From an uncultured Alphaproteobacteria bacterium (lineage in GTDB: Bacteria > Pseudomonadota > Alphaproteobacteria > CAAHEQ01 > UBA3637): DNA of 64,000 nucleotides. The translations under genes and the position numbers were made by a program. Of this stretch, positions 3,566 to 62,114 are shown piece after piece (position 1 is the stretch's first letter; each line of letters starts with the position of its first letter). The DNA is taken from NCBI GenBank assembly GCA_944392585.1, contig CALXXA010000025.1, positions 25,701-89,700 of the forward strand, in the 5' to 3' direction. The notes beneath the pieces were generated by a model. The model searched no databases. It was not told the origin of the DNA and worked only from the letters and a program-made list of their open reading frames with translations.

Positions 3566-3573
3566 AAAATCTC

Positions 3574-13108: not shown

Positions 13109-13303
13109 TTGGAATAATTTTTTCAACTGAATGAGTCGGAACCGGGACATCCCAAATAGCAACGAAAATTCCGCCTATAACGAGAGCCACTAGAATTAAT
13201 TTTAACCAAATATGTTTTTTTTCTTTTCTCATTTTGACACTTTTCCTAGACTTATACAACAAAAATGATTATTCTTTAAAATCAAGATTAATGTCAACAG
13301 AAG

Positions 13304-25651: not shown

Positions 25652-25655
25652 ATGT

Positions 25656-26068: not shown

Positions 26069-26749
26069 TTAAAAGTCTAAATCCGAGTAACTATTTGGAG
26101 GTATCATACCAGGTAATCTATCCATTAGCAAGGATTGAAATGACGGACGAGATTTGATTCTCGCGTACCAAGCTTTTGTTTCCAAATACAAGCTCCAATC
26201 TATTTCTCCCAAATAGTCTAAAACAGACAGATGAGCGGCTATATCAAAATCAGCCATAGAAATATGACCTCCGGCTAAATAGTTACGTCTTTCAGCCAAC
26301 CATTCGACATATTTTAAATGTCTTTTTAAATTTTGCCTTCCTGCACGAATCATAATAGAGTCAGGTTCTTTTTTCCCTTGTACTTGTTTTAATAAACGTT
26401 CTTTTACCAATGTATCATAGACTTCTTCATAGAAAAGAGAATCGAACCATGCTATTAGTCGCCGAACTTCAGCTCGAAAGACAGGATTATCCCCCAACAA
26501 ATCCATTCCCATTCGTGTTTCATTTAAATACTCGCAAATAGCTTGATGAGAACACAGAACCGTTCCGTCTACATCAATTAAGACAGGAACTTCTCCGGCT
26601 GGGTTCAATTTCAAAAAATCAATTCGTCTTTCCCATGGCTTTTCAAACTGAAGAGCGTGCTCAACCCCTTTTTCGAACAAACATAACCGAACTTTCCTAG
26701 AAAAAGGACATAAAGGATAATGATATAAAGTTACTCTTTCTTTTGTCAT
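26069..26749 (-). CDS. Glutathione S-transferase.
   Basis: 226 aa with a thioredoxin-like N-domain (LYHYPLCPFSRKVRL) and a GST C-domain. Confidence 0.8.
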   Translation of the reverse strand: MTKERVTLYHYPLCPFSRKVRLCLFEKGVEHALQFEKPWERRIDFLKLNPAGEVPVLIDVDGTVLCSHQAICEYLNETRMGMDLLGDNPVFRAEVRRLIAWFDSLFYEEVYDTLVKERLLKQVQGKKEPDSIMIRAGRQNLKRHLKYVEWLAERRNYLAGGHISMADFDIAAHLSVLDYLGEIDWSLYLETKAWYARIKSRPSFQSLLMDRLPGMIPPNSYSDLDF

Positions 26750-27906
26750 TTTTTATTAACTAACTCTTGTATACAAAATCCGGCTTTTTCACTTGGTAAC
26801 AAACTCCCGTTTTTCCCTAACTTTGACAAAACGCGTTGAGCTTTTTCCATTTGTGATTTTCCAGACACGTTTATTAATTCTTCTAATTTACACACAATTT
26901 GATTAGGATTGCAACGCTCTTGTAATAGTTCCGGAATAATTTCTTCATTTGCTAGGATATTTATTAGATTAACATATTTAATTTTAAGCAATCGTCGGAC
27001 CAACCATGCCGACAAAGGAGTAACATGATAGGTGATAACATGAGGCACTCCGGCCATGGATAATTCCAAACTAACAGTTCCTGACGCTGCTAAAGCGATA
27101 TAACTTGCCGCGAAAGCATCGTAACGTTCTTTTTCTCCGAGACTAACGATAACTTTCACAGGCCAATCTGCGGTCATTTCACGCACTTTTTTCGCCACCG
27201 TTTGAACAGTTGGGATAACAACAACTAATCGAGGATGCTTATTTTTCATGACCGCGACGACTTGTTCAAAAATAGGAAGTAACCATTGAACTTCATTTTT
27301 TCTGCTTCCTGGTAAAACCGTCATAACAAAATCTTCTTGAGAAAGATTGTATTTTTCATAAAATAAAAATTTATTGCCTTTGTCAGCACCTCCTTCAATA
27401 ACCGGATGTCCGACATATGTTGATGACATATCATAAGGGTCAAAATATTTCTTTTCAAACGGGAACAACATCATCAAATGATCCACCCATTTTTTAATTT
27501 CCTTAGCTCTTTTGGCTTTCCACGCCCAAACTTGAGGAGCAACATAATGAACATGAGGAATAGAAATACGTCTTTTTTTTAATTTTTGGTGAATTTTTAT
27601 GGAAAAAGACCAACTATCTATTGTCACAACGATATCCGGTTGAATTTTTTCAATATGTTTTAAAGTTTGTTTCATACGTTTTAAGATACGCGGAATACTA
27701 GGGACAACTTCCCAAAAGCCCATAACCGATAAATCTGAAATATCAAATAAGCTTTTTAATCCTTCTGCCTGCATTGTTTCTCCGCCAATGCCATAAAACT
27801 CAACATTATTCTGAGTTTGTCTTTTAAGAGCCTTCATTAATCGAGATCCAAGCAAATCACCCGACGGTTCACCGGCTATTAAATAAACTTTTAAAAATTT
27901 TGACAT
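26746..27906 (-). CDS. lpxB: Lipid-A-disaccharide synthase LpxB.
   Basis: 386 aa with the IAGEPSGDLLG N-terminal motif. Sits in the lpx operon. Confidence 0.9.
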   Translation of the reverse strand: MSKFLKVYLIAGEPSGDLLGSRLMKALKRQTQNNVEFYGIGGETMQAEGLKSLFDISDLSVMGFWEVVPSIPRILKRMKQTLKHIEKIQPDIVVTIDSWSFSIKIHQKLKKRRISIPHVHYVAPQVWAWKAKRAKEIKKWVDHLMMLFPFEKKYFDPYDMSSTYVGHPVIEGGADKGNKFLFYEKYNLSQEDFVMTVLPGSRKNEVQWLLPIFEQVVAVMKNKHPRLVVVIPTVQTVAKKVREMTADWPVKVIVSLGEKERYDAFAASYIALAASGTVSLELSMAGVPHVITYHVTPLSAWLVRRLLKIKYVNLINILANEEIIPELLQERCNPNQIVCKLEELINVSGKSQMEKAQRVLSKLGKNGSLLPSEKAGFCIQELVNKK

Positions 27907-28721
27907 GTTTCATCTATTCCTATTAAAAACAACCCTTCTTTATTTGCTCTTTGAACGACTTCTTTTTCATGGACAATAAATGCACTGTCTTTTTCGACGG
28001 CAATTCCTGCCAGACCAGCCTCTTTAGCAAGTTTTACAGTTTGAATCCCGATTGTGGGTAAATCGGCACGACGTTCTTGACGAGGTTTTTTTACCTTGAC
28101 TAAAACCCCTTTAACAGAACTTTGATGTAATGTTTTACATCTTTTTATAAGAGCGTCTGTCCCTTCTATCGCCTCGACACCTAAGACCAATCCGTCTGCA
28201 ATAATAACCGATTGCCCGACATCTGCCTGCCCTAGGATCTTAGCAACTTTATATCCTTTAGAGATATCTTCATAATTTTGTTTTGTTGGTTTAATTTTGC
28301 CATACACACCTGCATGAGACAAACAGTTTTTTAGGATTTCATCTGCTCCGATGACATGGAAGCCATCTTTTTCAATTTCATGAATAATCGCTTTTAACAG
28401 ACCATCATCTCCCAAAGATTTAACACCGGCTTTGGCAAAAAATTTTAATCCTCTCCAATCTGGTCTTAACTCTTGTAGTGTCGGGCGACGAACAGCTCCG
28501 ATCATCAGAATATCCTCAACAGCATTTGCATGAGCCAGTTCAAAAGATTTTCCAACGGCTCCTAACCGAACCCACGCTGCCTCAGGAGGCATGGAAGAAG
28601 AATCCGCATGTCCTTTTAAAGCTATAACGAAATAAGGTCTTCCTTGCTGTTGGCAAGCCTCTATAACCAATTTAGGTAATTCACCCGCTCCGGCAACAAT
28701 TCCTAATTTTTTCATAATCAC
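27891..28721 (-). CDS. lpxI: UDP-2,3-diacylglucosamine hydrolase LpxI (DUF1009).
   Basis: 276 aa with LGIVAGAGELP start. Lies between lpxA and lpxB as in alphaproteobacteria. Confidence 0.8.
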   Translation of the reverse strand: MIMKKLGIVAGAGELPKLVIEACQQQGRPYFVIALKGHADSSSMPPEAAWVRLGAVGKSFELAHANAVEDILMIGAVRRPTLQELRPDWRGLKFFAKAGVKSLGDDGLLKAIIHEIEKDGFHVIGADEILKNCLSHAGVYGKIKPTKQNYEDISKGYKVAKILGQADVGQSVIIADGLVLGVEAIEGTDALIKRCKTLHQSSVKGVLVKVKKPRQERRADLPTIGIQTVKLAKEAGLAGIAVEKDSAFIVHEKEVVQRANKEGLFLIGIDETCQNF

Positions 28722-29521
28722 CCGATTTGTGGTTGCAAAATGTTATTTTTAGAAGGATTTTGAACAAACTTAATAACATCTTGAACTAAAGGGTTGGCTT
28801 GATATTCCTCTGAAGAAGCGATGCGTTGAATACGTTCTTTAAAATTCCCTTCACTACTAAAGAATAAATCTTGATAAGCCTTTTGCAATCCCATAATCAA
28901 AGAAGCTTGTATATTTGCTCGTCGCAGCCCGACCAAGTTCAATCCGCTCAAACCGGAACGAGGCCCCCCCATCACAATCCCATATGGGATAACGTCTTGA
29001 ACAATGCCACACATACCTCCTATCATAGCGCCTTTCCCAATATGCGTAAATTGTAAAACAGCCGATAATCCTCCTATAATTACTCTGTCTTCAACTCTCA
29101 CATGACCTGCCAATGTCGCATTATTACTCATAACAATATCATTTCCTAAAATACAATCATGCGCAATATGACTTGCGACTAAAAATAAATTTCTATCTCC
29201 TATAATTGTAATTTTATTATCGACATCAGAGCCAACATGAGCTGTAACATGTTCTCGAAAAATATTATCATTCCCAATAATCAACTTTGCATCGGGAGCG
29301 TGACTTCTTTTATGTTGAGCCAACGTTCCGATAGCGGAAAAAGGATAGAAGGTATTCCGTTCTCCTATTTGCGTGTACCCATCAATCACAACGTGGGAAA
29401 TAAGACGGCACCCGCCTGCCAATTCGACATGAGGTCCGACTGTACAAAAAGGACCGATAAAAACATCATCGGCTATGTTCGCTTGAGCATCAACAATAGC
29501 GGTTGGATGAATATTTGTCAT
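28718..29521 (-). CDS. lpxA: UDP-N-acetylglucosamine acyltransferase LpxA.
   Basis: 267 aa with left-handed beta-helix hexapeptide repeats and IHPTAIVD start. Confidence 0.9.
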   Translation of the reverse strand: MTNIHPTAIVDAQANIADDVFIGPFCTVGPHVELAGGCRLISHVVIDGYTQIGERNTFYPFSAIGTLAQHKRSHAPDAKLIIGNDNIFREHVTAHVGSDVDNKITIIGDRNLFLVASHIAHDCILGNDIVMSNNATLAGHVRVEDRVIIGGLSAVLQFTHIGKGAMIGGMCGIVQDVIPYGIVMGGPRSGLSGLNLVGLRRANIQASLIMGLQKAYQDLFFSSEGNFKERIQRIASSEEYQANPLVQDVIKFVQNPSKNNILQPQIG

Positions 29522-29538
29522 AAGAAGTCTCCTTTAAT

Positions 29539-30015
29539 TTATCTAGGCATAATCATAGCACTAAATACTGCTTCTGAAACGATCTGATCATCCACGTATC
29601 CTTTACCGGAAAACTTATACACATTACGAACGGCTCTTTCTTTTTGGACATGGAATTTCAGACAATCTCCAGGAGTAACAGGTTTTCTAAATTTCACAGC
29701 ATCTATGGTCATAAACAAGACCCCGCATTGACCACGATCCTCTTTGGGTAGTTCAGTTAATACAATGACACCTGCTGTTTGAGCCATTGCTTCTATTTGT
29801 AAAACTCCTGGCATAACAGGGTTATTAGGGAAATGGCCTTGGAAAAAAGGCTCATTCATTGTAACATTCTTAATCCCTATTCCGGAAACTCCCGGAATAA
29901 CGTTCTGTATTTTATCTATCAGTAGAAACGGATACCGATGAGGGATCATTTCCATAATTTCTTTTATACTGATTTCTTTTATTATTTCTTTTTGGTTTTC
30001 TTGAAATTCTGTCAT
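29539..30015 (-). CDS. fabZ: 3-hydroxyacyl-ACP dehydratase FabZ.
   Basis: 158 aa with hotdog-fold motifs (HFP..PVMPGVL). Confidence 0.9.
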   Translation of the reverse strand: MTEFQENQKEIIKEISIKEIMEMIPHRYPFLLIDKIQNVIPGVSGIGIKNVTMNEPFFQGHFPNNPVMPGVLQIEAMAQTAGVIVLTELPKEDRGQCGVLFMTIDAVKFRKPVTPGDCLKFHVQKERAVRNVYKFSGKGYVDDQIVSEAVFSAMIMPR

Positions 30016-30017
30016 TT

Positions 30018-31049
30018 TTAACTTTCCTTTTTTACTTTACTGTTCTTTACAAATTTCTGCAACAAGACATTCATTCTCATCCAATCTGCGTGTGGGACAG
30101 CTGGGCTTCCGGCAACAATTTGTCCTGGTTCAATATTTTTCATAACTCCGGATTGAGCACCGATTTTCGCTCCAGTTCCTATTTTCAAATGCCCCGCGAA
30201 ACCGGATTGCCCTGCAGTAACAACGAAATCTCCAAATTCACAACTGCCGGCGATTCCTGTCTGAGACACAACGACACAACATTTTCCCAATTTAACATTA
30301 TGTGCAATTTGAACTAAATTATCAATTCTAGTTCCGTCTCCGATAACAGTATCTCCCATGGCACCTCTATCGACTGTTGTATTTGCGCCTATTTCAACAT
30401 CATTTCCGATGATAACGCGTCCTAATTGAGGAACTTTTATTGGCCCTTTGAGACTCATTGCGAAACCAAAACCATCTTGTCCGATTTGTGCTCCGGGATA
30501 TATATATACATTATGTCCGGCCAAACAATGGCTCACCGTTGCATTTGACCCGACGATACACCTATCTCCCATTTCCACTCCTTCTTGAATAACAGCATTC
30601 GCTTGAATATAACATTCACGACCAAGCTTTACATGAGCTCCTATAAAGGCCCCCGGCTCTACACGGCATCCCGTTCCTATTTGAGCCGTCTCATCTATAT
30701 ACGCTTTTGAAGAAATCTCCGCTAAAATCTTATTCGGATAAAAAGCCTGCGCAACAAGACCATAAGAACGATGCGGATCCTCCGAAATAAGAACAGCCAT
30801 TCCTTGCGGCACATATTTTATAAATTTTTCACTCGTAATACAAGCGGCTGCTTTTGATTTCATCAAACTGTCACGAACAGATGGAATAAAAGCCCACGTT
30901 ATATCTTTTTCTGTTGCCTCTTCCAATCCTGCCACATCTTCAACAATCTGTTTTGGATTAGATCCTTGAGCCAAATGACATTCTGCCAAATCAGCCAATT
31001 GTTCTAAAGTAAACGGACCGACTTTTTTAAAAAACCGTAAATCTGCCAT
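30018..31049 (-). CDS. lpxD: UDP-3-O-acylglucosamine N-acyltransferase LpxD.
   Basis: 343 aa with hexapeptide repeats. Conserved lpxD-fabZ-lpxA order. Confidence 0.9.
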
Positions 31050-52315: not shown

Positions 52316-55300
52316 ATGAAAAAACTCATTATTTTCTTTGTTATTTTTATCCTTTTAGGAGGCAGCTTATTATTTTTTCTAAAGAACACTCTTGATGCGC
52401 AAAGTTATAAGACTCAAATAATTCAAGCGACTCAAGAGCTAACCGGACGAAAAATGGAAGTGGAGGGAGCTGTAACCGTTCAATTATTCCCAACTCCAAC
52501 AATTACTTTAAATAATGTTAAGATAAAAAATATACCAGGCTCCTCAACGCCAGACGTGGTTTCGATTAAAAAAATTATTGCAACTGTTAAATGGGGATCT
52601 TTATTTGAAACTCCTTTGACAATAGAAACAATTTCTTTGGATACCCCTTCCTTTTTTATGGAGAGAAATGAAAAAGGACAGGTCAATTGGGATTTCCCTT
52701 TTTTACGAGAGAAGATAATAAAACCAGAGCAAGATAATTTAATCGGAAAATCTATTTTAGAAGTTCCGCCTCAATTTAAGAACTTGTCCATTCAAAACGG
52801 TCGTTTAATTTATACAAATACACTTACTGGATTCACACAAACTTTTGAACAAATAAAAGGAACTTTAACTGCTCCTTCTATTAATGGACCTTTCCAATTT
52901 AATGGTTATTTCTCTTGGCATCAAAAACCAATCCAAATTTCTTTAACCTCTGGATTGTTATTCTCGTCTCAAACAGCGGATATTAAGTTAGTATTAGTTG
53001 ATCCTCAAAGCAAAGCACAAATAAATTTGACGGGAAATTTAAAAAATCTGACGCAAACAAATGATATTACCGGGAATTTTTCAATAAATGTTCCGAAGAT
53101 GGCTCCTTTTTTAAAAACAATTATAAATTATAGTCATTTGCCTGACTCTTTAGAACGCCCTCTTATAGGAACGTCGACTTTTTCTTTTTCCAGTGAAAAA
53201 GCAACTTTTGATGATATTGCTTTTAGATATGGAACCTCTGAACTTGAAAATTCCATATCCGGTTCTGTTTCTTTTGTTTATCCGGAGAAAAAAGGAGAAA
53301 AAACACACACACAAGCCTCTTTGGTTTTAAGCAAAATCAATTTAGATACTTTCTTACCTTTATTACCGAACAAGGAAGATCTTAAGTCACAGTTCCTGGC
53401 TTTTAACAGGAAAACCATGTCTGATATTGATTTAAAAATCAAAGCAAATTCCGTTACATATAAAAAAGATATTCTCAAAGAAACAATCATAGACATTACA
53501 CATAAGGATGAAACAACAAAGATAAATCAATTTAAAACCGTGTTACCAGGGGATACTCAATTAACATTTGCAGGAGAAATTGATATTATAGACAATAATT
53601 CTCAATCGAATTTGAATATTTCTTTAGCGGCTCAAGACATAAAAAAAACAATAGAATGGTTAAATTTGCCGATTATGACAAAGCTATCTTTAGACAATTT
53701 AACGACATTCAAAGGCTCCGGAGAACTTTTTCTGAGAGAAACAGACTTCACCTTATCTAAAATCAATGCGGAAGCAAACGATGGAAGTATCACGGGGTCT
53801 ATAACTCTCTCTCTGACGGAAGAAAAACCAACCGGAATTATTCAAGCTTCATTCAAGAACATTAATTTAGATAATTATATTTCCACAGATCCCAAAAAGG
53901 AAAAACAAACTTTTTCTCAATTATGGGAAGAAGTTCAAGAAGAATTTCAAGATAGTTCTTTTCTATCTGCGGCGAACTTTCAATTTGACGTCACAGGACG
54001 TGATATAACAATAAGAAACATCCCTATTGAAAATTTATCTGCAACAGGTCTTCTCCAAAATGAAGTTTTAAATATTGAAAGTCTCAAAGTAGAAGGCGCT
54101 GCAATGGCAAACTTAACATTTTCCGGCACGATTCAAAAACAAAATAATCAACTCGCCTTTACAAACATTACCTATGACTTCAACACGCCTAAAGCTTCTG
54201 TTTTCTTAGATAGAGCGATGATTATTTCACCTTTATCGGAACAACTCCATAACGTTTCTCTTTCAGGCGTTGCTTCTGGTCAAGCAGATTCTTTTACATT
54301 TAATACCAATATGGATTTTTCTCAAGCTCGAATAAAAGCACACGGACAAATACAACAAAAAAATACGATTCCTAATTATGATGTATTTTTATCAATAGAT
54401 CATCCAAACTTCCATCAATTTATGAAATTATTTAATAAAGACTATACCAAATTCCCTTACATGACCGGCTCTTTAAATTTTCAAGCGCAATTAAAAGGAA
54501 CAGCTCAAACATTTACCCTCACAGAAATGGATGGGATGATAGGAACTCAACGTTTTAAAGGAACGGTAACCGTTACAAATGACATAATAAGAAGAATTCA
54601 AGCAAATGTAACATCTTCCCTCTTTAATTTTGAAAAAATCTACCCGAAGAAAGACATTATTCGTGGGATTGATCCCAATTCCGGGAAAGCTCAATTTTCC
54701 GATGACTTATTTAATTTCGGCAATTTTGAAGGATTAGATTTAGATATTACAGCCTCTTCAGATAAAATGATTTTTGATAAAATCTCTCTGGATCTTATGA
54801 GTACGCACTTCACGTTAAAAGAAAATCTGCTTACATTAGAGTATTTGAAAGGAACTCTCAACGACGGCTCGTTTTCAATGGAAGGGACCTTAAACGCCGG
54901 AACGGCGGAACCGGTTATAGCACTCAGAATTCAAGGAGAAAATATAAATTTAACCCCAGACAACTGGGCCTTAGGACGCTATCGTCTTAAAGGCGGGAAA
55001 AGTACTTTTCTGATGAATTTAAATACACGTGGAAATTCATTAAAAGATATGGTTCATTCTTTATCTGCGAATGGGAAGTACACTATAACTGATGGTTTGA
55101 TTTCAGGATTAAACTTAAATAATATTGAGAATCAAACAAAACTGATTTTAGAAAAAGGACAAGAAGCAGACACATTTGAGGATAACCTAACGACATACCT
55201 ATCAATGGGAGAAACACATTTTTCTTCACTTAGCGGAAGCTATACTATATCGAATGGTATTTTACGTACTTCAGACAGTATCTTCCAATCTCCGCAAAGT

Positions 55301-56161
55301 AATGCGCTTATTCAAGCGACTATTAATTTTCCGGAATGGACTGTTTCATCCTCGATAGCTCTTTCTATGAAGGGATTTACCAGTTTCCCTCCTATTCCTA
55401 TAATAATTACAGGACTTATTCATTCTCCGGAAGTTGAACCGAACACATCAAATTATGTTCTTTATTTAACTTCTGCTTCAGCTCAAATCAGAGACATAGC
55501 TTTACGGCAGAAATTAGAACGTGAACGTAAGCAAGCCACCATGGAGGCTCAAGAACGCAAACAAGAAGCAACTAAAATCGCTTCTTCCTCTCATGCCAAA
55601 ATAGATGAGACACAAAAAATTATTCAAATAGCCCCAACCCCTCAAGGAGAAAAGGAATTTATTAGAGCTCAAGATGCGCTGACTCTTATCAATGAACTTT
55701 CTATAAAAGAAACAATTTCCAAAGCAGATTTAAAGAAAATTGAAGAACAATACACTCTATTGCTTCAAAGAACTGACTTAGCGCAAAAAGCCTCTTTAGA
55801 TATTGCTCTGGCCAAAATGCGCCAACAGTCTCAAACCATCATGACTTCCGCTCAAACGACAATAAATGCCATCACTCGTATTTATCAACAATTAGAGGGT
55901 GTTGAATCAGTTGATACAGCTTATAAAAAAGGGCAAGAAATGTTCTCTATCATTGAGAAATTAAATACATTTATTTATCAATCTCAAGATCCAACCAAGA
56001 GTTCAGAAGCCTTATCTCATATGCAGCAAGCTCTGCAAATGCTTGAAAATAATTATAATGCCATTGCGAAGTTTGATGTAGAGGGAGGCTCTTTATCCAA
56101 TCAAGATAATAATAAAGCGACTCCCGTACAAGGGAAAATTATAAGAAATTCCGCACTATGA
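52316..56161 (+). CDS. AsmA family (AsmA/TamB-like) large envelope protein with N-terminal TM anchor.
   Basis: 1281 aa. N-terminal TM MKKLIIFFVIFILLGGSLLFFL followed by a long beta-rich sequence typical of AsmA-like proteins. Confidence 0.75.
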   Translation: MKKLIIFFVIFILLGGSLLFFLKNTLDAQSYKTQIIQATQELTGRKMEVEGAVTVQLFPTPTITLNNVKIKNIPGSSTPDVVSIKKIIATVKWGSLFETPLTIETISLDTPSFFMERNEKGQVNWDFPFLREKIIKPEQDNLIGKSILEVPPQFKNLSIQNGRLIYTNTLTGFTQTFEQIKGTLTAPSINGPFQFNGYFSWHQKPIQISLTSGLLFSSQTADIKLVLVDPQSKAQINLTGNLKNLTQTNDITGNFSINVPKMAPFLKTIINYSHLPDSLERPLIGTSTFSFSSEKATFDDIAFRYGTSELENSISGSVSFVYPEKKGEKTHTQASLVLSKINLDTFLPLLPNKEDLKSQFLAFNRKTMSDIDLKIKANSVTYKKDILKETIIDITHKDETTKINQFKTVLPGDTQLTFAGEIDIIDNNSQSNLNISLAAQDIKKTIEWLNLPIMTKLSLDNLTTFKGSGELFLRETDFTLSKINAEANDGSITGSITLSLTEEKPTGIIQASFKNINLDNYISTDPKKEKQTFSQLWEEVQEEFQDSSFLSAANFQFDVTGRDITIRNIPIENLSATGLLQNEVLNIESLKVEGAAMANLTFSGTIQKQNNQLAFTNITYDFNTPKASVFLDRAMIISPLSEQLHNVSLSGVASGQADSFTFNTNMDFSQARIKAHGQIQQKNTIPNYDVFLSIDHPNFHQFMKLFNKDYTKFPYMTGSLNFQAQLKGTAQTFTLTEMDGMIGTQRFKGTVTVTNDIIRRIQANVTSSLFNFEKIYPKKDIIRGIDPNSGKAQFSDDLFNFGNFEGLDLDITASSDKMIFDKISLDLMSTHFTLKENLLTLEYLKGTLNDGSFSMEGTLNAGTAEPVIALRIQGENINLTPDNWALGRYRLKGGKSTFLMNLNTRGNSLKDMVHSLSANGKYTITDGLISGLNLNNIENQTKLILEKGQEADTFEDNLTTYLSMGETHFSSLSGSYTISNGILRTSDSIFQSPQSNALIQATINFPEWTVSSSIALSMKGFTSFPPIPIIITGLIHSPEVEPNTSNYVLYLTSASAQIRDIALRQKLERERKQATMEAQERKQEATKIASSSHAKIDETQKIIQIAPTPQGEKEFIRAQDALTLINELSIKETISKADLKKIEEQYTLLLQRTDLAQKASLDIALAKMRQQSQTIMTSAQTTINAITRIYQQLEGVESVDTAYKKGQEMFSIIEKLNTFIYQSQDPTKSSEALSHMQQALQMLENNYNAIAKFDVEGGSLSNQDNNKATPVQGKIIRNSAL

Positions 56162-56222: not shown

Positions 56223-56891
56223 TTATTTTTTCTTTTTTATCGATTGGCGCCATTTAATCAAGAAGAAAGACATCCACCTAGGAGCATGCGGAGCCGATAA
56301 AAAGCGGACAGAAACTCTTTTTATTCCCATATTTAAACATAATGCCATGCGATAATGCCCTTGATACAAAGTATCTTGAACGCCCCATATACAACATAAA
56401 ACTATTTCCATAGGGAATAAATCATTAAACCCGTTTTTTTGTAAAGAATCTTTCAGAGCATAGAATTGCTGTTTTCTTTTTAAAGAAGAGCTTTCTAAGA
56501 AAATTTCTATATTTTCGAGATCTTGTATTGTAGATTCCAATTTTTTTTTACGAATCTCAATAGGATCAATATGATAAACATGAGATCCATAGGAATAAAA
56601 GTACTTACGAAAATTCTTTAAGAAAAGTGAAAAAAAATCTCCCCATGCCGAGTTTCTATAAAAAGCTATTCGGACAGGAATATAATCAGTTTTATTTTCA
56701 ATAGCCTGTAATATAATCGCTCTTCCTTGCAAAATAGAATCTTCTATTTTCTTTTTTTGATTGCCTAATAAAATAATAATCTGCCCATCCGGAAGAGAGG
56801 TTTTAGCATGAAAGGAAGAATCCTTTAACACATTGATGTCATTTGGATCTAAATGATAGATTTCAGAAGAAAGAAAAATATTTCTTTTCAT
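56223..56891 (-). CDS. Hypothetical protein (222 aa) at the edge of the LPS glycosyltransferase cluster.
   Basis: Basic C-terminus. I recognise no family. Confidence 0.4.
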   Translation of the reverse strand: MKRNIFLSSEIYHLDPNDINVLKDSSFHAKTSLPDGQIIILLGNQKKKIEDSILQGRAIILQAIENKTDYIPVRIAFYRNSAWGDFFSLFLKNFRKYFYSYGSHVYHIDPIEIRKKKLESTIQDLENIEIFLESSSLKRKQQFYALKDSLQKNGFNDLFPMEIVLCCIWGVQDTLYQGHYRMALCLNMGIKRVSVRFLSAPHAPRWMSFFLIKWRQSIKKKK

Positions 56892-57033
56892 AAAAGAATC
56901 CTTATAAATACCTTTTTCACTATATATAAAAAGATGTTTAATTTAAAGATAAAAAAACATCTATCTTGACTCTCCCTGGGAATTTTTTTTAGTATACAAT
57001 TGTATTAAGAATAATAACGATAAGAAGAAATAA

Positions 57034-58071
57034 ATGAAGATATTAAATGCAATGCTCTCCTCTGGTAAAGGAGGAATGGAACAAATGTCCATTACATATA
57101 TTAAGGCTCTAAAACAAATCGGCCATGAAGTCCATGCTCTTTATATAAAGAATACTCCTTACTTAACCGAATTGCGTAATCTTGATATTAATATCCACTT
57201 AATAAAACACCGTTCTATACTTAATCCATTCAATGCAGTTAAAATAAATCATATTGTTCATCAGATTCATCCAGATATTATTTTCTTGCACGGGAATCGA
57301 ATCATGAAATTTATGAATTACCCTATGATAAAATATTTTTTTAAACATTCTGCTCTTTTAATAGGAAAAGCGCATAATTTTACCTGTAAGCATCTTGCTA
57401 ATATGGATTATGCCATAGCTACGACAAGATATTGGAAAAATCAACAATCCTTTATAACGGGGAAAGAAGTTTTCTATCTTCCGAATACAGTTCCTTTAAC
57501 ACCGAAAAGAGAAGTTGTTTTTCACAAAATTCCGGTCATAAGAACAATGAGTCGCTTACATAAGAATAAATCTTATGACATATTTTTAAAAGCATTAAAG
57601 GTACTCAAGGATCGCCATATAACATTTAAAGCTATTATCGGAGGAGAAGGACCAGAGAAAGAGACTTTATTAAAATTACGCCATGAATTAGAACTAGAGA
57701 AAGATGTTTCTTTTATTGGTTGGGTAACAGATAAAGAATCTTTTTATGAAATGATTGATATTTTTTGTTTACCCTCTTGCACAGAACCTTTTGGAACTGT
57801 CTTGTTAGAGGCGATGGTTCGTTCTTGCCCTGTTGTCTCCACAGAATGCATAGGGCCGAAAGAAATAATAGAATCGAATACTTCCGGCATAACATGTCCT
57901 GTAGGAGATGTCCGAAAATTAGCAGATTCTCTGGAAAGGATGATACGAAATCCAGCAGAAGCTCTTAGAATGGGCCAAAACGGCAGAGAAGTTATTGAAA
58001 AGAACTATAATTTCCAATCATTTTGCTCATCATTAGACAAACTTATTCAACGAGTTATCTTGAAAAGTTAA
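57034..58071 (+). CDS. Glycosyltransferase family 4 (group 1).
   Basis: 345 aa with the GT4 C-terminal region (...EPFGTVLLEAMVRSCPVVSTECIGPKEII...). Confidence 0.75.
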   Translation: MKILNAMLSSGKGGMEQMSITYIKALKQIGHEVHALYIKNTPYLTELRNLDINIHLIKHRSILNPFNAVKINHIVHQIHPDIIFLHGNRIMKFMNYPMIKYFFKHSALLIGKAHNFTCKHLANMDYAIATTRYWKNQQSFITGKEVFYLPNTVPLTPKREVVFHKIPVIRTMSRLHKNKSYDIFLKALKVLKDRHITFKAIIGGEGPEKETLLKLRHELELEKDVSFIGWVTDKESFYEMIDIFCLPSCTEPFGTVLLEAMVRSCPVVSTECIGPKEIIESNTSGITCPVGDVRKLADSLERMIRNPAEALRMGQNGREVIEKNYNFQSFCSSLDKLIQRVILKS

Positions 58072-58818
58072 TCCTTGTTTTGCCTCGAAATACTTTGCAA
58101 TTTTTAGAAACCGGAAGTATGCAAGAGTTGTTGCCATAATTATTCCCCACGTTCCATTAAAAATATGTCTTCGGATTATATAATAAATAAAAAATTGTCT
58201 CGGAAATTCGGTATATAATCTTAATTTGGAATACTTTTTCCCTTGGACTAAAGCTGTTTTAACAAGTTCATCTGTATACAAGTTATATTTTACCCAAGTT
58301 TGATACAAAGACAAATAAGAATAGTGCAAAACCATTCCTTTTAGCTGCCCTACGGGAAGATTTTTTGGGACAGAAACTCTGTCATGAGTTAAATCATCCG
58401 GCATAGTAGAAAAACGCCTATCATAAAGGCGGACTAAATTATATTTTTTAGAGAATTTTCTAGGTTTATCAAGACCTGGGAACATATCGCCGATACGAAT
58501 TTTATAGGCTTTAAAGGTCGGATTTTTCTTAATTTTTAAAATTTCCTTAACTAAATCAGAGGATAAGACTTCATCAGCATCCAAAGAAAGAACCCATTCA
58601 AAAGAACACTGATTTTGAGCAAATTGTTTTTGTGATGAAATATTCTTCCACGGATGAGAGAAAACTTTAGCTCCCATTTCCCTTGCCAATTCGATAGTTC
58701 CGTCTGTACTTCCGCTATCGACGACGACAATTTCATCAGCGACCTGAGAAGCCGCTTTGATTGTTCTTGGCAATCGAGCGGCCTCATTTAAAGTTACAAT
58801 ATAAACAGATAATTTCAT
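58033..58818 (-). CDS. Glycosyltransferase family 2.
   Basis: 261 aa with N-terminal LSVYIVTLNEA...VVVDSGSTDGT...LSLDADE (DXD) GT2 motifs. Confidence 0.8.
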   Translation of the reverse strand: MKLSVYIVTLNEAARLPRTIKAASQVADEIVVVDSGSTDGTIELAREMGAKVFSHPWKNISSQKQFAQNQCSFEWVLSLDADEVLSSDLVKEILKIKKNPTFKAYKIRIGDMFPGLDKPRKFSKKYNLVRLYDRRFSTMPDDLTHDRVSVPKNLPVGQLKGMVLHYSYLSLYQTWVKYNLYTDELVKTALVQGKKYSKLRLYTEFPRQFFIYYIIRRHIFNGTWGIIMATTLAYFRFLKIAKYFEAKQGLTFQDNSLNKFV

Positions 58819-59871
58819 TTACACCACCGTCGGGAAAGAATACTTTTTAGCATCAAAAGTAAAGAATAATAAATCCGTCATATAACGAGCGATAACTTTT
58901 TCATTAAACTCTTTACGATATTTTAAACACCCATTTTTAGCGATTTTCTGACGTTCTTGAGGATGATTTGCATAATATTCTATTTTAACGCATAAATCAT
59001 CTGGATTATCATAGAAAACCATTTCATCGGAAGAAAATAACGTTTGGAATCCTGCACGTTTATCCATAAAACATAACAAGCCATTTCCCATGATATGAGC
59101 GATTCTATCCGATGAATACAAAAATACATCATTTCTTCTAGAGATATTCAGTCCCATACCGGAAGAGGCGAAAGATTTTTGATATGCCGCACCGTTTAAC
59201 CTGGAATAAGAATCTATTCCGGCGAAGAAGAATTTAACTTGAGGAACTTTCTTTTGGATGAAAGAAACAATCTCTTGAGGAGAAACATTTTTATTTCCGA
59301 ATTGGCGAGAAGTATTTCCAGCGCAATAGCAAATATCATTAGGAGGATTTTTCACTTCAAACATATTAAGCGTTTCAATAGACGTATCCGTCGGATTTGG
59401 TAAAAATCCGACAATATTTCCTGGTCTTTTAAATTGTTTTAACAAAGCAACATCTCCTGTTGTAACAAGAGTAATATCAACGACATCCAACTTAGAAGAG
59501 ATTCGCTCTATATTTCCTATTTCACATTCAGGCAAAATCCAATCTACATTATATTGTAAGATTCTAATCTTCGGCAACAACATACGAATTTGAGCTAAAG
59601 TTTTAGGATAAATCGTATCTGCGTGACCTAAAATAATCGCATCTGGTAATACGCAGAGACAATAATTTATTAAATGGTTATTCAGCCGCCGCAGCCCCAT
59701 TTTTTTGTATCCTGCGAAACTAAAATAACGTAAAAAATCTCTATCATTATAGTTTAAGACATTATATCCGTTTCGGATCAACCCGTTTGAGAGTTTAGGA
59801 GCAATTTGGTTCATAAAGCAACGTTTTAATCTTAATTGATTAAATTGCCCAATATGTAGGATTGTCTTCAT
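58819..59871 (-). CDS. Glycosyltransferase, GT4-like C-terminal domain (350 aa).
   Basis: C-terminal region (...YSSDRIAHIMGNGLLCFMDK...MVFYDNPDDLCVKIEYYANHPQERQKIAKNG...) resembles the group-1 GT C-domain. Confidence 0.5.
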   Translation of the reverse strand: MKTILHIGQFNQLRLKRCFMNQIAPKLSNGLIRNGYNVLNYNDRDFLRYFSFAGYKKMGLRRLNNHLINYCLCVLPDAIILGHADTIYPKTLAQIRMLLPKIRILQYNVDWILPECEIGNIERISSKLDVVDITLVTTGDVALLKQFKRPGNIVGFLPNPTDTSIETLNMFEVKNPPNDICYCAGNTSRQFGNKNVSPQEIVSFIQKKVPQVKFFFAGIDSYSRLNGAAYQKSFASSGMGLNISRRNDVFLYSSDRIAHIMGNGLLCFMDKRAGFQTLFSSDEMVFYDNPDDLCVKIEYYANHPQERQKIAKNGCLKYRKEFNEKVIARYMTDLLFFTFDAKKYSFPTVV

Positions 59872-59951
59872 AGATTCAGGGGTTCCTTATATTTGTGAGT
59901 ATAAAAAGTTGTTTTATAGGATAAATAAAAATGAAATTAAATGCAAGATTT

Positions 59952-60929
59952 TTAAATAAGTGCTTTTAAATGATCTTCAACCTTCTGATATGTTTGGAAG
60001 ACATAATCAGCCAACGCAGGTAATAAAGGCTCCTGATCTATAAAATCATTATAGTGTTTTGGATGAACATGGAGGTCTTCAATGATGTTTAAGACTTTTG
60101 AATTATCTGCTCCTTGTTGCCAAAACAAAACAGCATCCTGATTAACTAATCCGAGTTCTATTTGATTATCAGAGCCCCAATAGACTGGAATGGCACGAGC
60201 TTTAAAAGCTTCAAAAACTTTTTCAGTAACATATCCGAAACAGTTGCTATTTTCCGGACAAACTGAGAATTGAAATTGTTTTAAATAAGAAACCTTTTGA
60301 TTATTAAAAATCTCCCACAATCTATCATCATTATGATAGAAAGTTCCGGCACAGGAAACGGAATCGATTTTATTCAAAGCATCTAATAACTCCTTTCGTA
60401 ACCCTGTATCGCCTTCATGCCGAGCGATTAAGCTCGCAAAATCTGTTTTTTTATAGCGCGCTTGATTGATTTCTGTTACTTTCTGATGTAATTGCTCTAA
60501 GTTTTCAGTCCCATCAAATAAATACATAATCCACAAAGGGAACCGAATATATTTAGGATGATCTAAAAAATCAAACCCCATTGACAAGACGGTATATGGC
60601 AAAGCATAATCTGCATAAACAGGGAATCGTTTAATATTTTCGCCTGTATAAAAAATCTTTTTCTCATGACGGTTAAACCAAAAAGTTCTTCGCTTTCCAA
60701 AGATGGAGACAAAGCTGAATTGTTGAGCTTCCTTCAAAGACAACCTTGATGTAATAAAGCGCGCAAACCATGCATCTGCTTCTGTATGTCCCCACCAATT
60801 ATAATGTTTTATTCCTTTTAAAGGAATCCCTAAGTAAGTACTTTTGAACCGTTTTATTTTTCTGATTAAAGCCATGCCTATTCTCACTAACTCGAGTAAG
60901 AGTATATAAAAAAAACTGGATTTAATCAA
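59952..60929 (-). CDS. GT10 family alpha-1,3-fucosyltransferase-like protein.
   Basis: YLKQFQFSVCPENSNCFGYVTEKVFEAFKARAIPVYWGS matches the GT10 signature (F.FENS...Y.TEK...A.....PV..G). Confidence 0.6.
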   Translation of the reverse strand: MIKSSFFYILLLELVRIGMALIRKIKRFKSTYLGIPLKGIKHYNWWGHTEADAWFARFITSRLSLKEAQQFSFVSIFGKRRTFWFNRHEKKIFYTGENIKRFPVYADYALPYTVLSMGFDFLDHPKYIRFPLWIMYLFDGTENLEQLHQKVTEINQARYKKTDFASLIARHEGDTGLRKELLDALNKIDSVSCAGTFYHNDDRLWEIFNNQKVSYLKQFQFSVCPENSNCFGYVTEKVFEAFKARAIPVYWGSDNQIELGLVNQDAVLFWQQGADNSKVLNIIEDLHVHPKHYNDFIDQEPLLPALADYVFQTYQKVEDHLKALI

Positions 60930-60965: not shown

Positions 60966-62114
60966 ATGACTTATTTATTTACATCGGAATCCGTATCTGA
61001 AGGACATCCAGATAAAGTTTGCGATCAAATATCTGACGCTTTATTAGACCTAATGCTTTCAAAAGATGAACAAGCGCGATCTGCTATTGAAACAATGGCG
61101 ACGACAAACCGAGTCATTCTTTCTGGAGAAATTCGTTTAAGAAATAACATACCGTTTCAAGAAATAGACCAGACCATTCGCCATGTTATTAAAAACATAG
61201 GATATGAACAAGGAGAGTTTAATTGGAAAGACATTCAAATTGAAAATTATCTTCACGAACAAAGTGCTGATATTGCCTTAGGCGTTGACAGAAACGGAGC
61301 CGGAGATCAAGGAATTATGTTTGGATATGCGACGAATGAATGCGATGCTGCGGATTTTATGCCGGCTCCGATTTTTTACGCGCATCAGATTTTAAAGAAC
61401 TTATCTCGAAAAAGACATAGCGGGATCTATAAAGGATTGGGCCCGGACGCAAAGAGTCAAGTCACTTTTTTATATAAAGATAATAAGCCCGTTTCCATAG
61501 ACAATATCGTTGTCTCGACACAACACCATCCTGATATAACCAACTCCTTTTTATCCGAAATGGTCATCAAAACAATACAAGAAGTTATTCCTAAAAACCT
61601 TCTGTGTCCTATTGACAAGATCTATATCAACCCGACAGGTCGTTTTATTATCGGTGGTCCAGCCGGAGACACAGGATTAACGGGGCGGAAAATTATTGTC
61701 GACACTTACGGTGGAGCAGCGCCTCACGGAGGAGGTGCTTTTTCAGGGAAAGACGCCACAAAGGTCGATAGAACGGCTGCTTATATGGCTCGTTATATTG
61801 CTAAAAACATTGTTGCTGCGAAAATCGCGGATAAATGTCTTATTCAATTATCTTATGCCATAGGAATGACTTATCCTCTTTCCATATATATCAACACATT
61901 TGGGACAAGTAAAATTTCAAATTTCCAATTAACTGATTTCATAAAAAAAGAAATAGATTTAACTCCCAAAGGAATGCGAGAGAAATTAAGTCTTAATAAA
62001 CCTTTTTTCCTACAAACGGCTGTTTACGGTCATTTTGGGAGAAAACCTGAAGAAAACGGTTGTTTTTCATGGGAAAAAACAGACTTAACGTCTTTGTTTC
62101 AAAAATTATCTTAA
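60966..62114 (+). CDS. metK: S-adenosylmethionine synthetase.
   Basis: 382 aa with ESVSEGHPDKVCDQISDA, GAGDQG and GGGAFSGKD motifs. Confidence 0.95.
   Translation: MTYLFTSESVSEGHPDKVCDQISDALLDLMLSKDEQARSAIETMATTNRVILSGEIRLRNNIPFQEIDQTIRHVIKNIGYEQGEFNWKDIQIENYLHEQSADIALGVDRNGAGDQGIMFGYATNECDAADFMPAPIFYAHQILKNLSRKRHSGIYKGLGPDAKSQVTFLYKDNKPVSIDNIVVSTQHHPDITNSFLSEMVIKTIQEVIPKNLLCPIDKIYINPTGRFIIGGPAGDTGLTGRKIIVDTYGGAAPHGGGAFSGKDATKVDRTAAYMARYIAKNIVAAKIADKCLIQLSYAIGMTYPLSIYINTFGTSKISNFQLTDFIKKEIDLTPKGMREKLSLNKPFFLQTAVYGHFGRKPEENGCFSWEKTDLTSLFQKLS

What the first reader, a model, noticed from the sequence alone, without database searches (positions are those of the whole stretch)
56223..60929. LPS/glycan glycosyltransferase cluster with a GT10 alpha-1,3-fucosyltransferase-like gene
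Five consecutive genes lie between asmA and metK: one hypothetical, GT4, GT2, GT4-like and GT10-like. The last shows the F.FENS...YVTEK...A....IPVY.G signature of alpha-1,3/4-fucosyltransferases, the family that builds Lewis antigens in Helicobacter. A fucosylated surface glycan in a host-associated alphaproteobacterium with a reduced genome could be a host-mimicry or immune-evasion determinant.
Basis: partly seen in the sequence, partly recalled or inferred. Interest (0 to 1): 0.55.

Follow-up and report, generated by a model that had tools for sequence, protein, structure and literature searches.

The report
Surface-glycan glycosyltransferase cluster with GT10 enzyme
An uncultured alphaproteobacterium carries a conserved five-gene sugar-transferase cluster, most likely decorating its lipopolysaccharide core, that includes a convincing fucosyltransferase-family (GT10) enzyme and an uncharacterised double ParB/sulfiredoxin-like protein; the gene content is fairly ordinary and the proposed host mimicry is untested.

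Summary
Five intact ORFs lie between asmA and metK: an unannotated 222-aa protein, GT4, GT2, a PF13524 GT-B protein and a GT10 protein.

The GT10 call is solid. Both Pfam domains score above threshold, and H. pylori FucT is the best solved relative (E 5e-20). The catalytic Glu and five GDP-fucose-contacting residues are all conserved. Its real start is probably Met19, giving 307 aa.

Fucosylation itself is unproven. No gmd, fcl, manB or manC lies in the window, in about 9 kb beyond it, or around any homologue (350 kb in total). The whole genome could not be searched.

LPS core is the likeliest target. The cluster has no flippase, polymerase, ligase or priming transferase. The window encodes lipid A and Lpt genes. 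GT10 homologues at 48% identity abut a heptosyltransferase and a heptose-7-phosphate kinase. Lewis-antigen mimicry has no specific support.

The one less ordinary element is the 'hypothetical' gene. It belongs to a rare Pfam-less family (141 representatives) built from two tandem ParB/Srx-like modules. In most relatives examined it sits directly upstream of a second PF13524 transferase. That partner is missing here, and the window copy carries five substitutions at conserved positions.

Verdict: new member of a known kind, low-to-moderate interest.

The parts
59952..60875 (-). GT10-family glycosyltransferase, a predicted GDP-fucose-dependent alpha-1,3/4-fucosyltransferase. It is 307 aa from ATG 60875. 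The mechanical ORF extends to TTG 60929 (325 aa).
   Evidence: PF00852 scores 47.4 bits (cutoff 23.9) and PF18025 scores 40.3 bits (cutoff 27.2). The best solved relatives are H. pylori FucT 5zoi and 2nzw at E 5e-20. E79, R160, N209, Y215, E218 and K219 correspond to HpFucT E95, R195, N240, Y246, E249 and K250 and are invariant in 27 homologues. The 307-aa start is supported.
58819..59871 (-). PF13524 (Glyco_trans_1_2) GT-B glycosyltransferase, 350 aa, 'copy a'. Its CAZy family is unassigned.
   Evidence: PF13524 at E 1.8e-17, with no NCBIfam hit and no solved relative by sequence. It is 75% identical to the syntenic L001 gene and 45-46% identical to the PF13524 genes that follow the 222-aa family elsewhere.
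58033..58818 (-). GT2 (GT-A fold) glycosyltransferase, 261 aa.
   Evidence: PF00535 at E 1.9e-16. The best solved relative is the GT2 domain of GmaR at E 1.2e-15. No NCBIfam equivalog was reached.
57034..58071 (+). GT4 (GT-B fold, retaining) glycosyltransferase, 345 aa. It is convergent with the GT2 gene, with a 39-nt 3' overlap.
   Evidence: PF00534 at E 2.8e-37 and PF13692 at E 8.5e-32. The solved relatives are generic GT4 enzymes such as BshA-like proteins, TarM and PglH/WlaC.
56223..56891 (-). 222-aa protein of an uncharacterised family made of two tandem ParB/Srx-like modules. In relatives it is the upstream partner of a second PF13524 transferase, which is missing here.
   Evidence: No Pfam or NCBIfam hit and no solved relative by sequence. 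The family has 141 representatives among 1.84 billion proteins. The AF2 model has pLDDT 94.2 and pTM 0.90. About the first 45 Foldseek hits are almost all ParB/Srx proteins. The N-terminal and C-terminal halves align by hhalign at probability 97.2 and E 4e-11. Gene linkage comes, and domain fusions. The window copy deviates at 5 of 25 conserved columns.
52316..56161 (+). AsmA-family protein, 1281 aa. It is the left flank and is not part of the cluster in relatives.
   Evidence: PF05170 at E 1.9e-36. It is absent from this position in L001 and L015.
60966..62114 (+). metK, the conserved right flank, divergent from the GT10 gene.
   Evidence: TIGR01034 at 486 bits. metK is also adjacent to GT10 in L001, L015 and L020-L022.
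26746..31049 (-). lpxD-fabZ-lpxA-lpxI-lpxB lipid A genes. This is context showing that the organism makes LPS.
   Evidence: NCBIfam matches for lpxD, fabZ, lpxA and lpxB are above their cutoffs. The LpxI match is full length at E 9e-72 but below the curated cutoff.

Best explanation
This is a chromosomal glycan-assembly cluster that is conserved across related lineages of uncultured Alphaproteobacteria. Four cytoplasmic glycosyltransferases (GT10, a PF13524 GT-B enzyme, GT2 and GT4) add sugars one after another from nucleotide-sugar donors. The acceptor is most likely the lipid A-core, giving a lipooligosaccharide-type outer core.

The GT10 enzyme is a genuine family member with an intact active site. 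It most likely transfers L-fucose from GDP-fucose with inversion, making an alpha-linked, probably terminal or branching, fucose.

The fifth gene encodes a protein built from two tandem ParB/Srx-like modules. I infer that it binds a nucleotide, or acts as a phosphotransferase. In related genomes it works with a second PF13524 transferase encoded immediately downstream. In this genome that partner has been lost, and the ParB/Srx-like gene shows signs of relaxed constraint.

What is shown: the gene content, the family memberships, residue conservation, synteny and the fold.

What is inferred: the fucose donor, the LPS-core acceptor, and any biochemical role of the ParB/Srx-like protein.
For: GT10 membership:
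- Both Pfam domains score above their gathering thresholds.
- HpFucT is the best solved relative at E 5e-20, with FYTGEN, R178 and CPENSNCFGYVTEK aligned onto E95, R195, N240, Y246, E249 and K250.
- Those positions are invariant in 27 homologues.
- The equivalent FUT9 residues (Glu137 as base; Arg202, Lys256 and Asn246) are described in PMC12717137.

Conserved cluster:
- The order metK | GT10 - PF13524a - GT2 | GT4 | hyp - PF13524b is found in L001 (GT10 71% identical) and in L015.
- The five-gene form recurs in at least four assemblies.

LPS-core reading:
- No Wzx, Wzy, WaaL, ABC transporter or priming transferase lies in or next to the cluster.
- Lipid A, Lpt and BamA genes are in the window.
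- In L004 and L017 a 48%-identical GT10 gene is followed after 1 nt by a GT9 heptosyltransferase-like gene. Next comes a heptose-7-phosphate kinase (TIGR02198, 353.9 bits against a cutoff of 345).

ParB/Srx-like protein:
- The AF2 model is confident (pLDDT 94.2).
- Foldseek hits are ParB-N, sulfiredoxin, Noc, PadC, KorB, SerK and SbnI.
- There is an internal duplication.
- The D..QGHHR motif is invariant or nearly so.
- A PF13524 gene lies 7-10 nt downstream, or overlaps the end of the gene, in L001 and L012-L016.
- Fusions exist to APH-type kinases, phytase-like esterases and a rhamnosyltransferase.
Against: - No GDP-fucose synthesis gene (gmd, fcl) and no GDP-mannose gene (manB, manC) was found in the 64-kb window, in about 9 kb beyond it, or in any homologous locus. 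The salvage enzyme Fkp was not searched for.
- No heptosyltransferase, Kdo transferase or waaL lies next to the cluster in this genome, so the LPS-core link rests on relatives and on absences.
- Contexts of GT10 homologues vary. They include a GT2 plus dTDP-rhamnose genes in L005, an ABC-transporter polysaccharide locus in L019, and HAD plus Fe-ADH genes in L008.
- The GT2's closest solved relative is GmaR, a flagellin O-GlcNAc transferase.
- Foldseek E-values for the ParB/Srx match are weak (best 0.027). No Pfam ParB model matches any family member.
- The window copy has Tyr in place of the second His of the GHHR motif.
Confidence: 0.6

Rival explanations
1. The cluster builds a glycan that is not attached to lipid A-core. 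It could be an O-antigen or capsule repeat unit assembled on undecaprenyl phosphate, with export genes elsewhere, or a protein (for example flagellin) O-glycan.
For: The GT2's best solved relative is the flagellin O-GlcNAc transferase GmaR at E 1.2e-15. A more distant GT10 homologue (40% identity) sits in an ABC-transporter polysaccharide locus in L019. In L005 a GT10 homologue lies near dTDP-rhamnose genes. A relative's contig carries a flagellin gene about 7 kb from its GT10 gene (L008).
Against: No priming phosphoglycosyltransferase, flippase, polymerase, chain-length regulator or ABC transporter lies in or beside the cluster, either in the window or in L001, L015 and L020. The closest informative context links GT10 to heptose-core genes. 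GmaR may be the top hit only because LPS-core GT2 enzymes have no solved structures; that last point is my own knowledge.
Confidence: 0.25
2. The GT10-family protein does not fucosylate in this organism. Either it uses another GDP-sugar, or it is idle because a reduced genome no longer supplies GDP-fucose.
For: There are no Gmd, Fcl, ManB or ManC hits in about 73 kb of this genome or in 350 kb of related loci. The subfamily has its own conserved features (CPENS in place of CFENS, and a CAG.F.HNDD block) that H. pylori FucT lacks. Loss of PF13524b and drift in the neighbouring gene show that parts of the cluster are decaying in this lineage.
Against: All six catalytic and GDP-fucose-binding positions are intact and invariant. 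The ORF is intact and is 99-100% conserved across assemblies from different samples. Every characterised GT10 enzyme uses GDP-fucose (PMC12717137, and my own knowledge). Only about 73 kb of the genome was searched, and the salvage enzyme Fkp was not searched for.
Confidence: 0.15
3. The cluster makes a Lewis-type fucosylated LPS epitope that mimics host glycans and aids immune evasion, as in Helicobacter pylori.
For: The enzyme belongs to GT10 and H. pylori FucT is its closest solved relative. Related genomes encode ankyrin-repeat and EF-hand proteins near the homologous genes, which hints at association with eukaryotes.
Against: The protein has no C-terminal heptad-repeat region, since its 307 aa end just after the catalytic domain, and it has no poly-C or poly-G tract. 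No LacNAc-forming galactosyltransferase was recognised. Sequence identity to HpFucT is confined to the catalytic core. The acceptor is unknown. Neither the host nor the habitat of the organism could be established.
Confidence: 0.1

Closest known systems
Helicobacter pylori alpha-1,3-fucosyltransferase FucT/FutA (CAZy GT10; PDB 2nzw, 5zoi)
   Same: It shares the two-domain GT-B architecture (FucT_N plus the GT10 C-terminal domain). The catalytic Glu in YTGEN is conserved, as are the Arg, the Asn of ENS/T and the Y-V-T-E-K donor-binding motif.
   Different: The window protein is only 307 aa. It lacks the C-terminal heptad repeats and the amphipathic membrane anchor. It has no poly-C phase-variation tract. 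It reads CPENS rather than CFENS. Similarity is limited to the catalytic core (two local stretches, 56.5-57.8 and 19.0-19.7 bits). Its genomic neighbours are different, and its acceptor is unknown.
Short bacterial GT10 proteins of Bacteroidales and other Bacteroidota (uncharacterised metagenomic homologues, some labelled 'alpha(1,3/1,4) fucosyltransferase' by their sources)
   Same: They are 35-41% identical over about 90% of the length, are similar in size (about 300-340 aa) and have the same two Pfam domains.
   Different: They sit in large polysaccharide loci, for example with an ABC transporter and many other GTs in L019. The alphaproteobacterial copies sit in small clusters without an exporter. 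None of these homologues is biochemically characterised, as far as the tools show.
LOS/LPS outer-core glycosyltransferase clusters (waa/lgt-type loci)
   Same: It is a small set of cytoplasmic GT2, GT4 and GT-B enzymes with no flippase, polymerase or ligase. The organism has lipid A and Lpt genes. Homologues are linked to heptosyltransferase and HldE-type genes.
   Different: This cluster has no GT9 heptosyltransferase, no Kdo transferase and no WaaP-type kinase. None of the four GTs reaches any NCBIfam equivalog for a named core enzyme.
ParB/Srx superfamily small-molecule enzymes and NTP-binding proteins (sulfiredoxin, free serine kinase SerK, SbnI, ParB/Noc/KorB N-domains)
   Same: The predicted fold of the 222-aa protein matches these and almost nothing else. 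A strand, then the D..QGHHR motif at a helix N-terminus, then another strand corresponds to the nucleotide-phosphate-binding element of this fold. That correspondence is from my own knowledge of the fold.
   Different: There is no detectable sequence match to any Pfam ParB or Srx model. The protein has two tandem copies of the module. It has no DNA-binding domain. Its genomic association is with PF13524 glycosyltransferases rather than with partition or redox systems. The window copy has GHYR instead of GHHR.

Membership tests
CAZy GT10 / Pfam Glyco_transf_10 (alpha-1,3/4-fucosyltransferases) | The C-terminal catalytic domain PF00852 scores above Pfam's gathering score. | tested here: met
   47.4 bits against a cutoff of 23.9, E 2.2e-12, residues 160-297 of the 325-aa form.
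CAZy GT10 / Pfam Glyco_transf_10 (alpha-1,3/4-fucosyltransferases) | The N-terminal acceptor domain of the bacterial type (PF18025, FucT_N) is present. | tested here: met
   40.3 bits against a cutoff of 27.2. The precomputed Pfam annotation of nearly all homologues agrees.
CAZy GT10 / Pfam Glyco_transf_10 (alpha-1,3/4-fucosyltransferases) | The catalytic base Glu is conserved (HpFucT E95, FUT9 E137). | tested here: met
   FYTGEN aligns to FYTGEN of 2nzw. E79 in 307-aa numbering is invariant in 27 homologues. The role of E95 and E137 is cited in PMC6785251 and PMC12717137.
CAZy GT10 / Pfam Glyco_transf_10 (alpha-1,3/4-fucosyltransferases) | The GDP-fucose-binding residues are conserved (HpFucT R195, N240, Y246, E249, K250). 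| tested here: met
   R160, N209, Y215, E218 and K219 align to them and are invariant. The HpFucT residue list is partly from my own memory of Sun et al. 2007. The FUT9 equivalents Arg202, Asn246 and Lys256 are confirmed in PMC12717137.
CAZy GT10 / Pfam Glyco_transf_10 (alpha-1,3/4-fucosyltransferases) | The enzyme transfers L-fucose from GDP-fucose. | not testable with these tools
   This needs a recombinant enzyme assay.
CAZy GT10 / Pfam Glyco_transf_10 (alpha-1,3/4-fucosyltransferases) | The same genome supplies GDP-fucose, either through gmd/fcl or through fkp salvage. | tested here: inconclusive
   tblastn with E. coli Gmd, Fcl, ManB, ManC and Gmm found nothing in the window, in about 9 kb beyond it, or in 350 kb of related loci.
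Helicobacter-type Lewis-antigen LPS system | The FucT carries C-terminal heptad repeats and a membrane-anchoring tail, and its gene has a poly-C phase-variation tract. | tested here: not met
   The protein ends about 75 residues after the YVTEK motif, at residue 307. The gene has no C or G run of 6 or more. That these features exist in H. pylori is from my own knowledge.
Helicobacter-type Lewis-antigen LPS system | Enzymes are present that build the LacNAc acceptor (a beta-1,4-galactosyltransferase and a beta-1,3-GlcNAc transferase). | tested here: inconclusive
   The GT2, GT4 and PF13524 proteins reach no named equivalog, so their specificities are unknown.
LPS/LOS core-oligosaccharide glycosyltransferase cluster | The organism makes lipid A and exports LPS. 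| tested here: met
   lpxD, fabZ, lpxA, lpxB and BamA score above their cutoffs. lpxI, LptF and LptD are matched; of these only LptF is above its curated cutoff.
LPS/LOS core-oligosaccharide glycosyltransferase cluster | The cluster has no Und-P priming transferase, flippase, polymerase or ABC exporter, so assembly would be directly on lipid A-core. | tested here: met
   Only four GTs and the ParB/Srx-like gene lie between asmA and metK. The same is true of L001, L015 and L020. The absence applies to the locus only, not to the genome.
LPS/LOS core-oligosaccharide glycosyltransferase cluster | The cluster is physically linked to inner-core genes (heptosyltransferase, ADP-heptose synthesis, Kdo transferase). 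| tested here: inconclusive
   This is not met in the window. It is met for 48%-identical GT10 homologues in L004 and L017, where the order is GT10, GT9, then a heptose-7-phosphate kinase (TIGR02198, 353.9 bits against 345).
ParB/Srx superfamily (for the 222-aa protein) | The protein has the ParB/Srx fold. | tested here: met
   The AF2 model has pLDDT 94.2 and pTM 0.90. About the first 45 Foldseek PDB hits are almost all ParB-N, Srx, Noc, PadC, KorB, SerK or SbnI. The best probability is 0.99, and TM normalised to the Srx target is about 0.5. The E-values are weak, at 0.027 or higher.
ParB/Srx superfamily (for the 222-aa protein) | The phosphate-binding Gly-x-x-Arg element (GHHR) sits at a helix N-terminus. 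| tested here: inconclusive
   D173, G178 and R181 are invariant in the family, and H179 and H180 are at least 90% conserved. The window copy has Y180 and four other departures from conserved positions. Whether it binds nucleotide was not tested.
ParB/Srx superfamily (for the 222-aa protein) | The sequence matches a curated ParB or Srx model. | tested here: not met
   No Pfam family matches more than 3 of the 46 members, and none of the families listed is a ParB or Srx model. A profile search of PDB sequences found nothing relevant.

The most novel reading that the evidence does not exclude
The 222-aa gene represents an undescribed family of tandem ParB/Srx-fold proteins. In this reading they act as nucleotide-dependent partners of PF13524 glycosyltransferases, for example as a kinase or phosphotransferase, or as a donor-presenting subunit, in envelope-glycan (LPS core) modification. 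The fusions to APH-type kinases, phytase-like esterases and a rhamnosyltransferase would then mark a previously unrecognised glycan phospho-modification module. The window would capture a lineage in which the module is being dismantled after its transferase partner was lost.
Probability: 0.25. Interest if true: 0.55.

Novelty: new member of a known kind. Interest (0 to 1): 0.3.

Why it matters
If the GT10 enzyme is active, an uncultured alphaproteobacterial lineage decorates its envelope with alpha-linked fucose made by a compact 307-aa enzyme. That enzyme lacks the H. pylori tail. It could be useful as a soluble biocatalyst for fucosylated oligosaccharides, and it could matter for how these bacteria are seen by hosts, lectins or phages. 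This is an incremental addition, because GT10 genes are already known in many bacteria.

The more open question concerns the tandem ParB/Srx-like family. ParB/Srx proteins are known as CTP switches, sulfiredoxins and small-molecule kinases, not as components of glycan assembly. A conserved pairing with PF13524 transferases, whose own biochemistry is poorly known, gives a testable lead on both families.

Tried and rejected
- Structure prediction of the 222-aa protein with a shallow 14-sequence alignment failed (pLDDT 46.7) and was discarded. It succeeded only after the exhaustive representative search supplied diverse homologues.
- Profile and single-sequence searches of PDB sequences gave nothing for the 222-aa family or for the PF13524 protein.
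- A tblastn search of plasmids gave nothing for the 222-aa protein. For GT10 it gave only Azospirillum hits at 23-25% identity, in unannotated records.
- I tried to establish habitat and host from run and sample accessions in the paper library. There were no hits.
- Taxonomy from DnaE gave only 'MAG: Alphaproteobacteria bacterium' among named neighbours, at 63% identity or less. No order or family could be assigned.
- The genome-collection scan returned one related genome only.
- I considered whether the Bacteroidetes protein-O-glycosylation FucT family (BF4306, Tanf_01305) is the relevant relative. I rejected this because that family is GT2, not GT10 (PMC8698959).
- The promoter and terminator scan was at chance level and was not used.
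- Rfam found nothing in the window.
- The GDP-fucose pathway search was limited to the sequence in hand. No Fkp query sequence was available.

Full report
**1. Observation**

The five ORFs are present exactly where stated: 56223-56891 (-, 222 aa), 57034-58071 (+, 345 aa), 58033-58818 (-, 261 aa), 58819-59871 (-, 350 aa) and 59952-60929 (-, 325 aa from a TTG). The flanks are an AsmA-family gene (PF05170, E 1.9e-36) and metK (TIGR01034, 486 bits).

Pfam gives these assignments:
- GT4: PF00534, E 2.8e-37.
- GT2: PF00535, E 1.9e-16.
- The 'GT4-like' gene: PF13524 Glyco_trans_1_2, E 1.8e-17.
- The last gene: both GT10 domains, PF00852 at 47.4 bits (cutoff 23.9) and PF18025 FucT_N at 40.3 bits (cutoff 27.2).
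- The 222-aa protein: no Pfam or NCBIfam hit.

The sequence reads FSVCPENSNCFGYVTEKVFEAFKARAIPVYWG.

The GT10 start is most likely ATG 60875, giving 307 aa. NCBI-called members of the same cluster and other assemblies give 307 aa, and homologues are 301-309 aa. That start also leaves a 90-nt divergent intergenic region with metK.

The genes form three transcription units: GT10-PF13524-GT2, then GT4 (convergent, with a 39-nt overlap), then the 222-aa gene. G+C content across the cluster (0.30-0.34) is slightly below the window range (0.32-0.42). The same arrangement occurs in at least four independent assemblies.

**2. The GT10 gene**

The best solved relatives are H. pylori FucT 5zoi and 2nzw (E 5e-20), followed by a plant core alpha-1,3-FucT. 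I counted along the printed alignment. HpFucT E95 (in FYTGEN), R195, N240, Y246, E249 and K250 align with identical residues of the window protein.

In an alignment of 27 subfamily members these are invariant: E79, R160, N209, Y215, E218 and K219 in 307-aa numbering. The role of Glu95 is cited in PMC6785251. The equivalent FUT9 residues (Glu137 as base; Arg202, Lys256 and Asn246) are in PMC12717137. The remainder of the HpFucT residue list is from my memory of the 2007 structure paper.

Membership in GT10 is therefore met on every sequence criterion.

The differences from the H. pylori enzyme are these:
- There is no C-terminal heptad-repeat or anchor region.
- There is no poly-C tract.
- The subfamily has its own signature: CPENS, and a CAG.F.HNDD block.

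**3. Donor supply**

I took E. coli K-12 Gmd, Fcl, ManB, ManC and Gmm from NC_000913 and ran tblastn against the window and every fetched locus, about 350 kb in all. That set includes about 9 kb beyond the window's right end.

Nothing was found at E ≤ 0.01; the only match at a looser cutoff was a 24-residue nucleotidyltransferase P-loop match (E 0.011) in L005. Sequence past metK holds DnaB and a prophage remnant. The remainder of the genome cannot be reached with these tools, and I had no Fkp query. This test is inconclusive.

**4. Which glycan**

The cluster holds only transferases. In three lineages (the window, L001 and L015) there is no priming transferase, flippase, polymerase, ligase or ABC exporter at the locus. 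The window also encodes lpxD, fabZ, lpxA, lpxI, lpxB, BamA and LptF/LptD, so the organism makes LPS.

In two assemblies of a more distant relative (L004 and L017; GT10 48% identical), the GT10 gene is followed after 1 nt by a GT9 heptosyltransferase-like gene. Next comes a D-glycero-beta-D-manno-heptose-7-phosphate kinase (TIGR02198, 353.9 bits, cutoff 345). This is the best positive evidence that the subfamily acts on LPS core.

Other contexts differ, which keeps the alternatives open:
- A GT2 and dTDP-rhamnose genes in L005.
- HAD plus Fe-ADH genes in L008.
- An ABC-transporter polysaccharide locus in a Mangrovibacterium genome, L019.
- The GT2's closest solved relative is the flagellin O-GlcNAc transferase GmaR.

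I put LPS/LOS core at about 0.5 and other surface glycans at about 0.25-0.3.

**5. The 'hypothetical' gene**

This is the least ordinary element. Its family is rare: 27 clusters in the word-indexed search and 141 representatives among 1.84 billion proteins. None of 46 members scanned has a meaningful Pfam hit.

*Linkage.* The gene is conserved in the cluster. The L001 copy is 60% identical and the L015 copy 54%. In L001, L015, L012, L013, L014 and L016 it is followed by a 352-359-aa PF13524 transferase gene. The gap is 7-10 nt, or the two genes overlap by 8 nt. In L005 it is convergent with a GT10 gene.

*Fold.* With a 46-sequence alignment, AlphaFold2 gives pLDDT 94.2 and pTM 0.90. A 14-sequence alignment had failed. 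Foldseek against the PDB returns almost only ParB/Srx-superfamily proteins for about the first 45 ranks: pNOB8 ParB-N, sulfiredoxin, PadC, Noc, KorB, free serine kinase and SbnI. The best probability is 0.99 and TM against Srx targets is about 0.5, but the E-values are weak, at 0.027 or higher.

*Internal duplication.* The invariant D..QGHHR element followed by a beta-strand fits the nucleotide-phosphate-binding element of that fold (fold knowledge is my own). hhalign of the N-terminal half against the C-terminal half gives probability 97.2 and E 4e-11 over 92 columns. The protein is therefore a tandem duplication of the module, and the first copy is degenerate (GR in place of GHHR).

*Fusions.* Fusion proteins join the domain to APH or protein-kinase-like phosphotransferases, to phytase-like esterases (PF13449) and to a putative rhamnosyltransferase (PF11316). 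This is consistent with a role in glycan or phospho-glycan chemistry.

*State of the window copy.* In the window lineage the downstream PF13524b gene is absent, and asmA ends 61 nt after the gene. This holds in four or more assemblies. The window protein departs from consensus at 5 of 25 strongly conserved columns: R120S, A128I, Y129E, R167C and H180Y. The family median is 1. I read this as relaxed constraint after loss of the partner, which is an inference.

**6. Organism**

The only related genome in the species-level collection is titled 'uncultured Alphaproteobacteria bacterium'. The named neighbours of DnaE are nearly all 'MAG: Alphaproteobacteria bacterium', at 63% identity or less.

The habitat could not be established. 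Relatives encode ankyrin-repeat and EF-hand proteins near the homologous genes, which is a weak hint of association with eukaryotes. 'Host-associated with a reduced genome' remains unverified.

**7. Comparison and novelty**

The GT10 gene is a new member of a known family. Bacterial GT10 genes are widespread, and GT10 homologues at 35-41% identity are carried by Bacteroidales genomes. I did not run a phylogenetic test of transfer.

The cluster works like a waa/lgt-type outer-core locus, but no gene in it reaches any named equivalog.

Nothing supports the specific Lewis-mimicry scenario beyond family membership.

The ParB/Srx-like family is the only element that would count as a new variant of a known fold in an unexpected context.

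Overall interest is low to moderate (0.3). The most novel reading not excluded is that the ParB/Srx-like family forms a glycan-modification module with PF13524 transferases (probability 0.25, interest 0.55 if true).

Noticed in passing
window 7846-11070 (-): A single uninterrupted 1074-aa ORF carries a full LptF permease (TIGR04407, residues 3-358, 250 bits against a cutoff of 230) followed by LptD (residues 390-1055). The junction reads ...ILYRGSFWRIG-MKKAVFFICFLCLYGNNADA-VQHQ. So lptD keeps its own Met and signal peptide, but no stop codon ends lptF. It could be a real inner-membrane/outer-membrane Lpt fusion, a lost stop codon with internal initiation, or an assembly error.
   Followed up: partly
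window 809-4320 (-) and 11990-13162 (-): Four consecutive ORFs (287, 371, 259 and 248 aa) and one further ORF (390 aa) have signal-peptide-like N-termini and no NCBIfam family. They may be secreted or envelope proteins of unknown kind.
   Followed up: partly
L012, L013, L014, L016 (about 8001-10400 in each) and L008 8266-10906: In a sister group of MAGs the ParB/Srx-like gene and its PF13524 partner are followed by a small HD_4 (RelA/SpoT-hydrolase-like) gene. They also lie near a pair made of a glycerol-1-phosphate-dehydrogenase-like gene (PRK00843, 251 bits, below cutoff) and a HAD-IB phosphatase gene. In L008 that same pair sits directly upstream of the GT10 homologue. This may be a glycerol-phosphate-related glycan modification.
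   Followed up: no
L004 10001-12862 and L017 6544-9405: GT10 homologues at 48% identity form an apparent operon with a GT9 heptosyltransferase-like gene and a stand-alone HldE kinase-domain gene. They lie just downstream of a CDP-alcohol phosphatidyltransferase gene.
   Followed up: yes
L020 13575-20530 (sequence to the right of the window's end in a conspecific 140-kb scaffold): Directly after DnaB there is a prophage-like block: a resolvase, a DNA methylase, DUF1833, an NlpC/P60 protein and a GpJ-like tail protein.
   Followed up: no
window 24506-25702 (-): A further complete GT4 glycosyltransferase (398 aa, with both the N-terminal and C-terminal Pfam domains) lies just downstream of the lipid A gene block lpxD-fabZ-lpxA-lpxI-lpxB, separated from lpxB by two small ORFs. 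By position it is a candidate inner-core transferase. Its position recalls LpcC/WadC-type mannosyltransferases, from my own knowledge, and this was not tested.
   Followed up: partly
window 57034-58071 (+) versus 58033-58818 (-): The convergent GT4 and GT2 genes overlap by 39 nt at their 3' ends. The same overlap is kept in L001, L015 and L020-L022.
   Followed up: no
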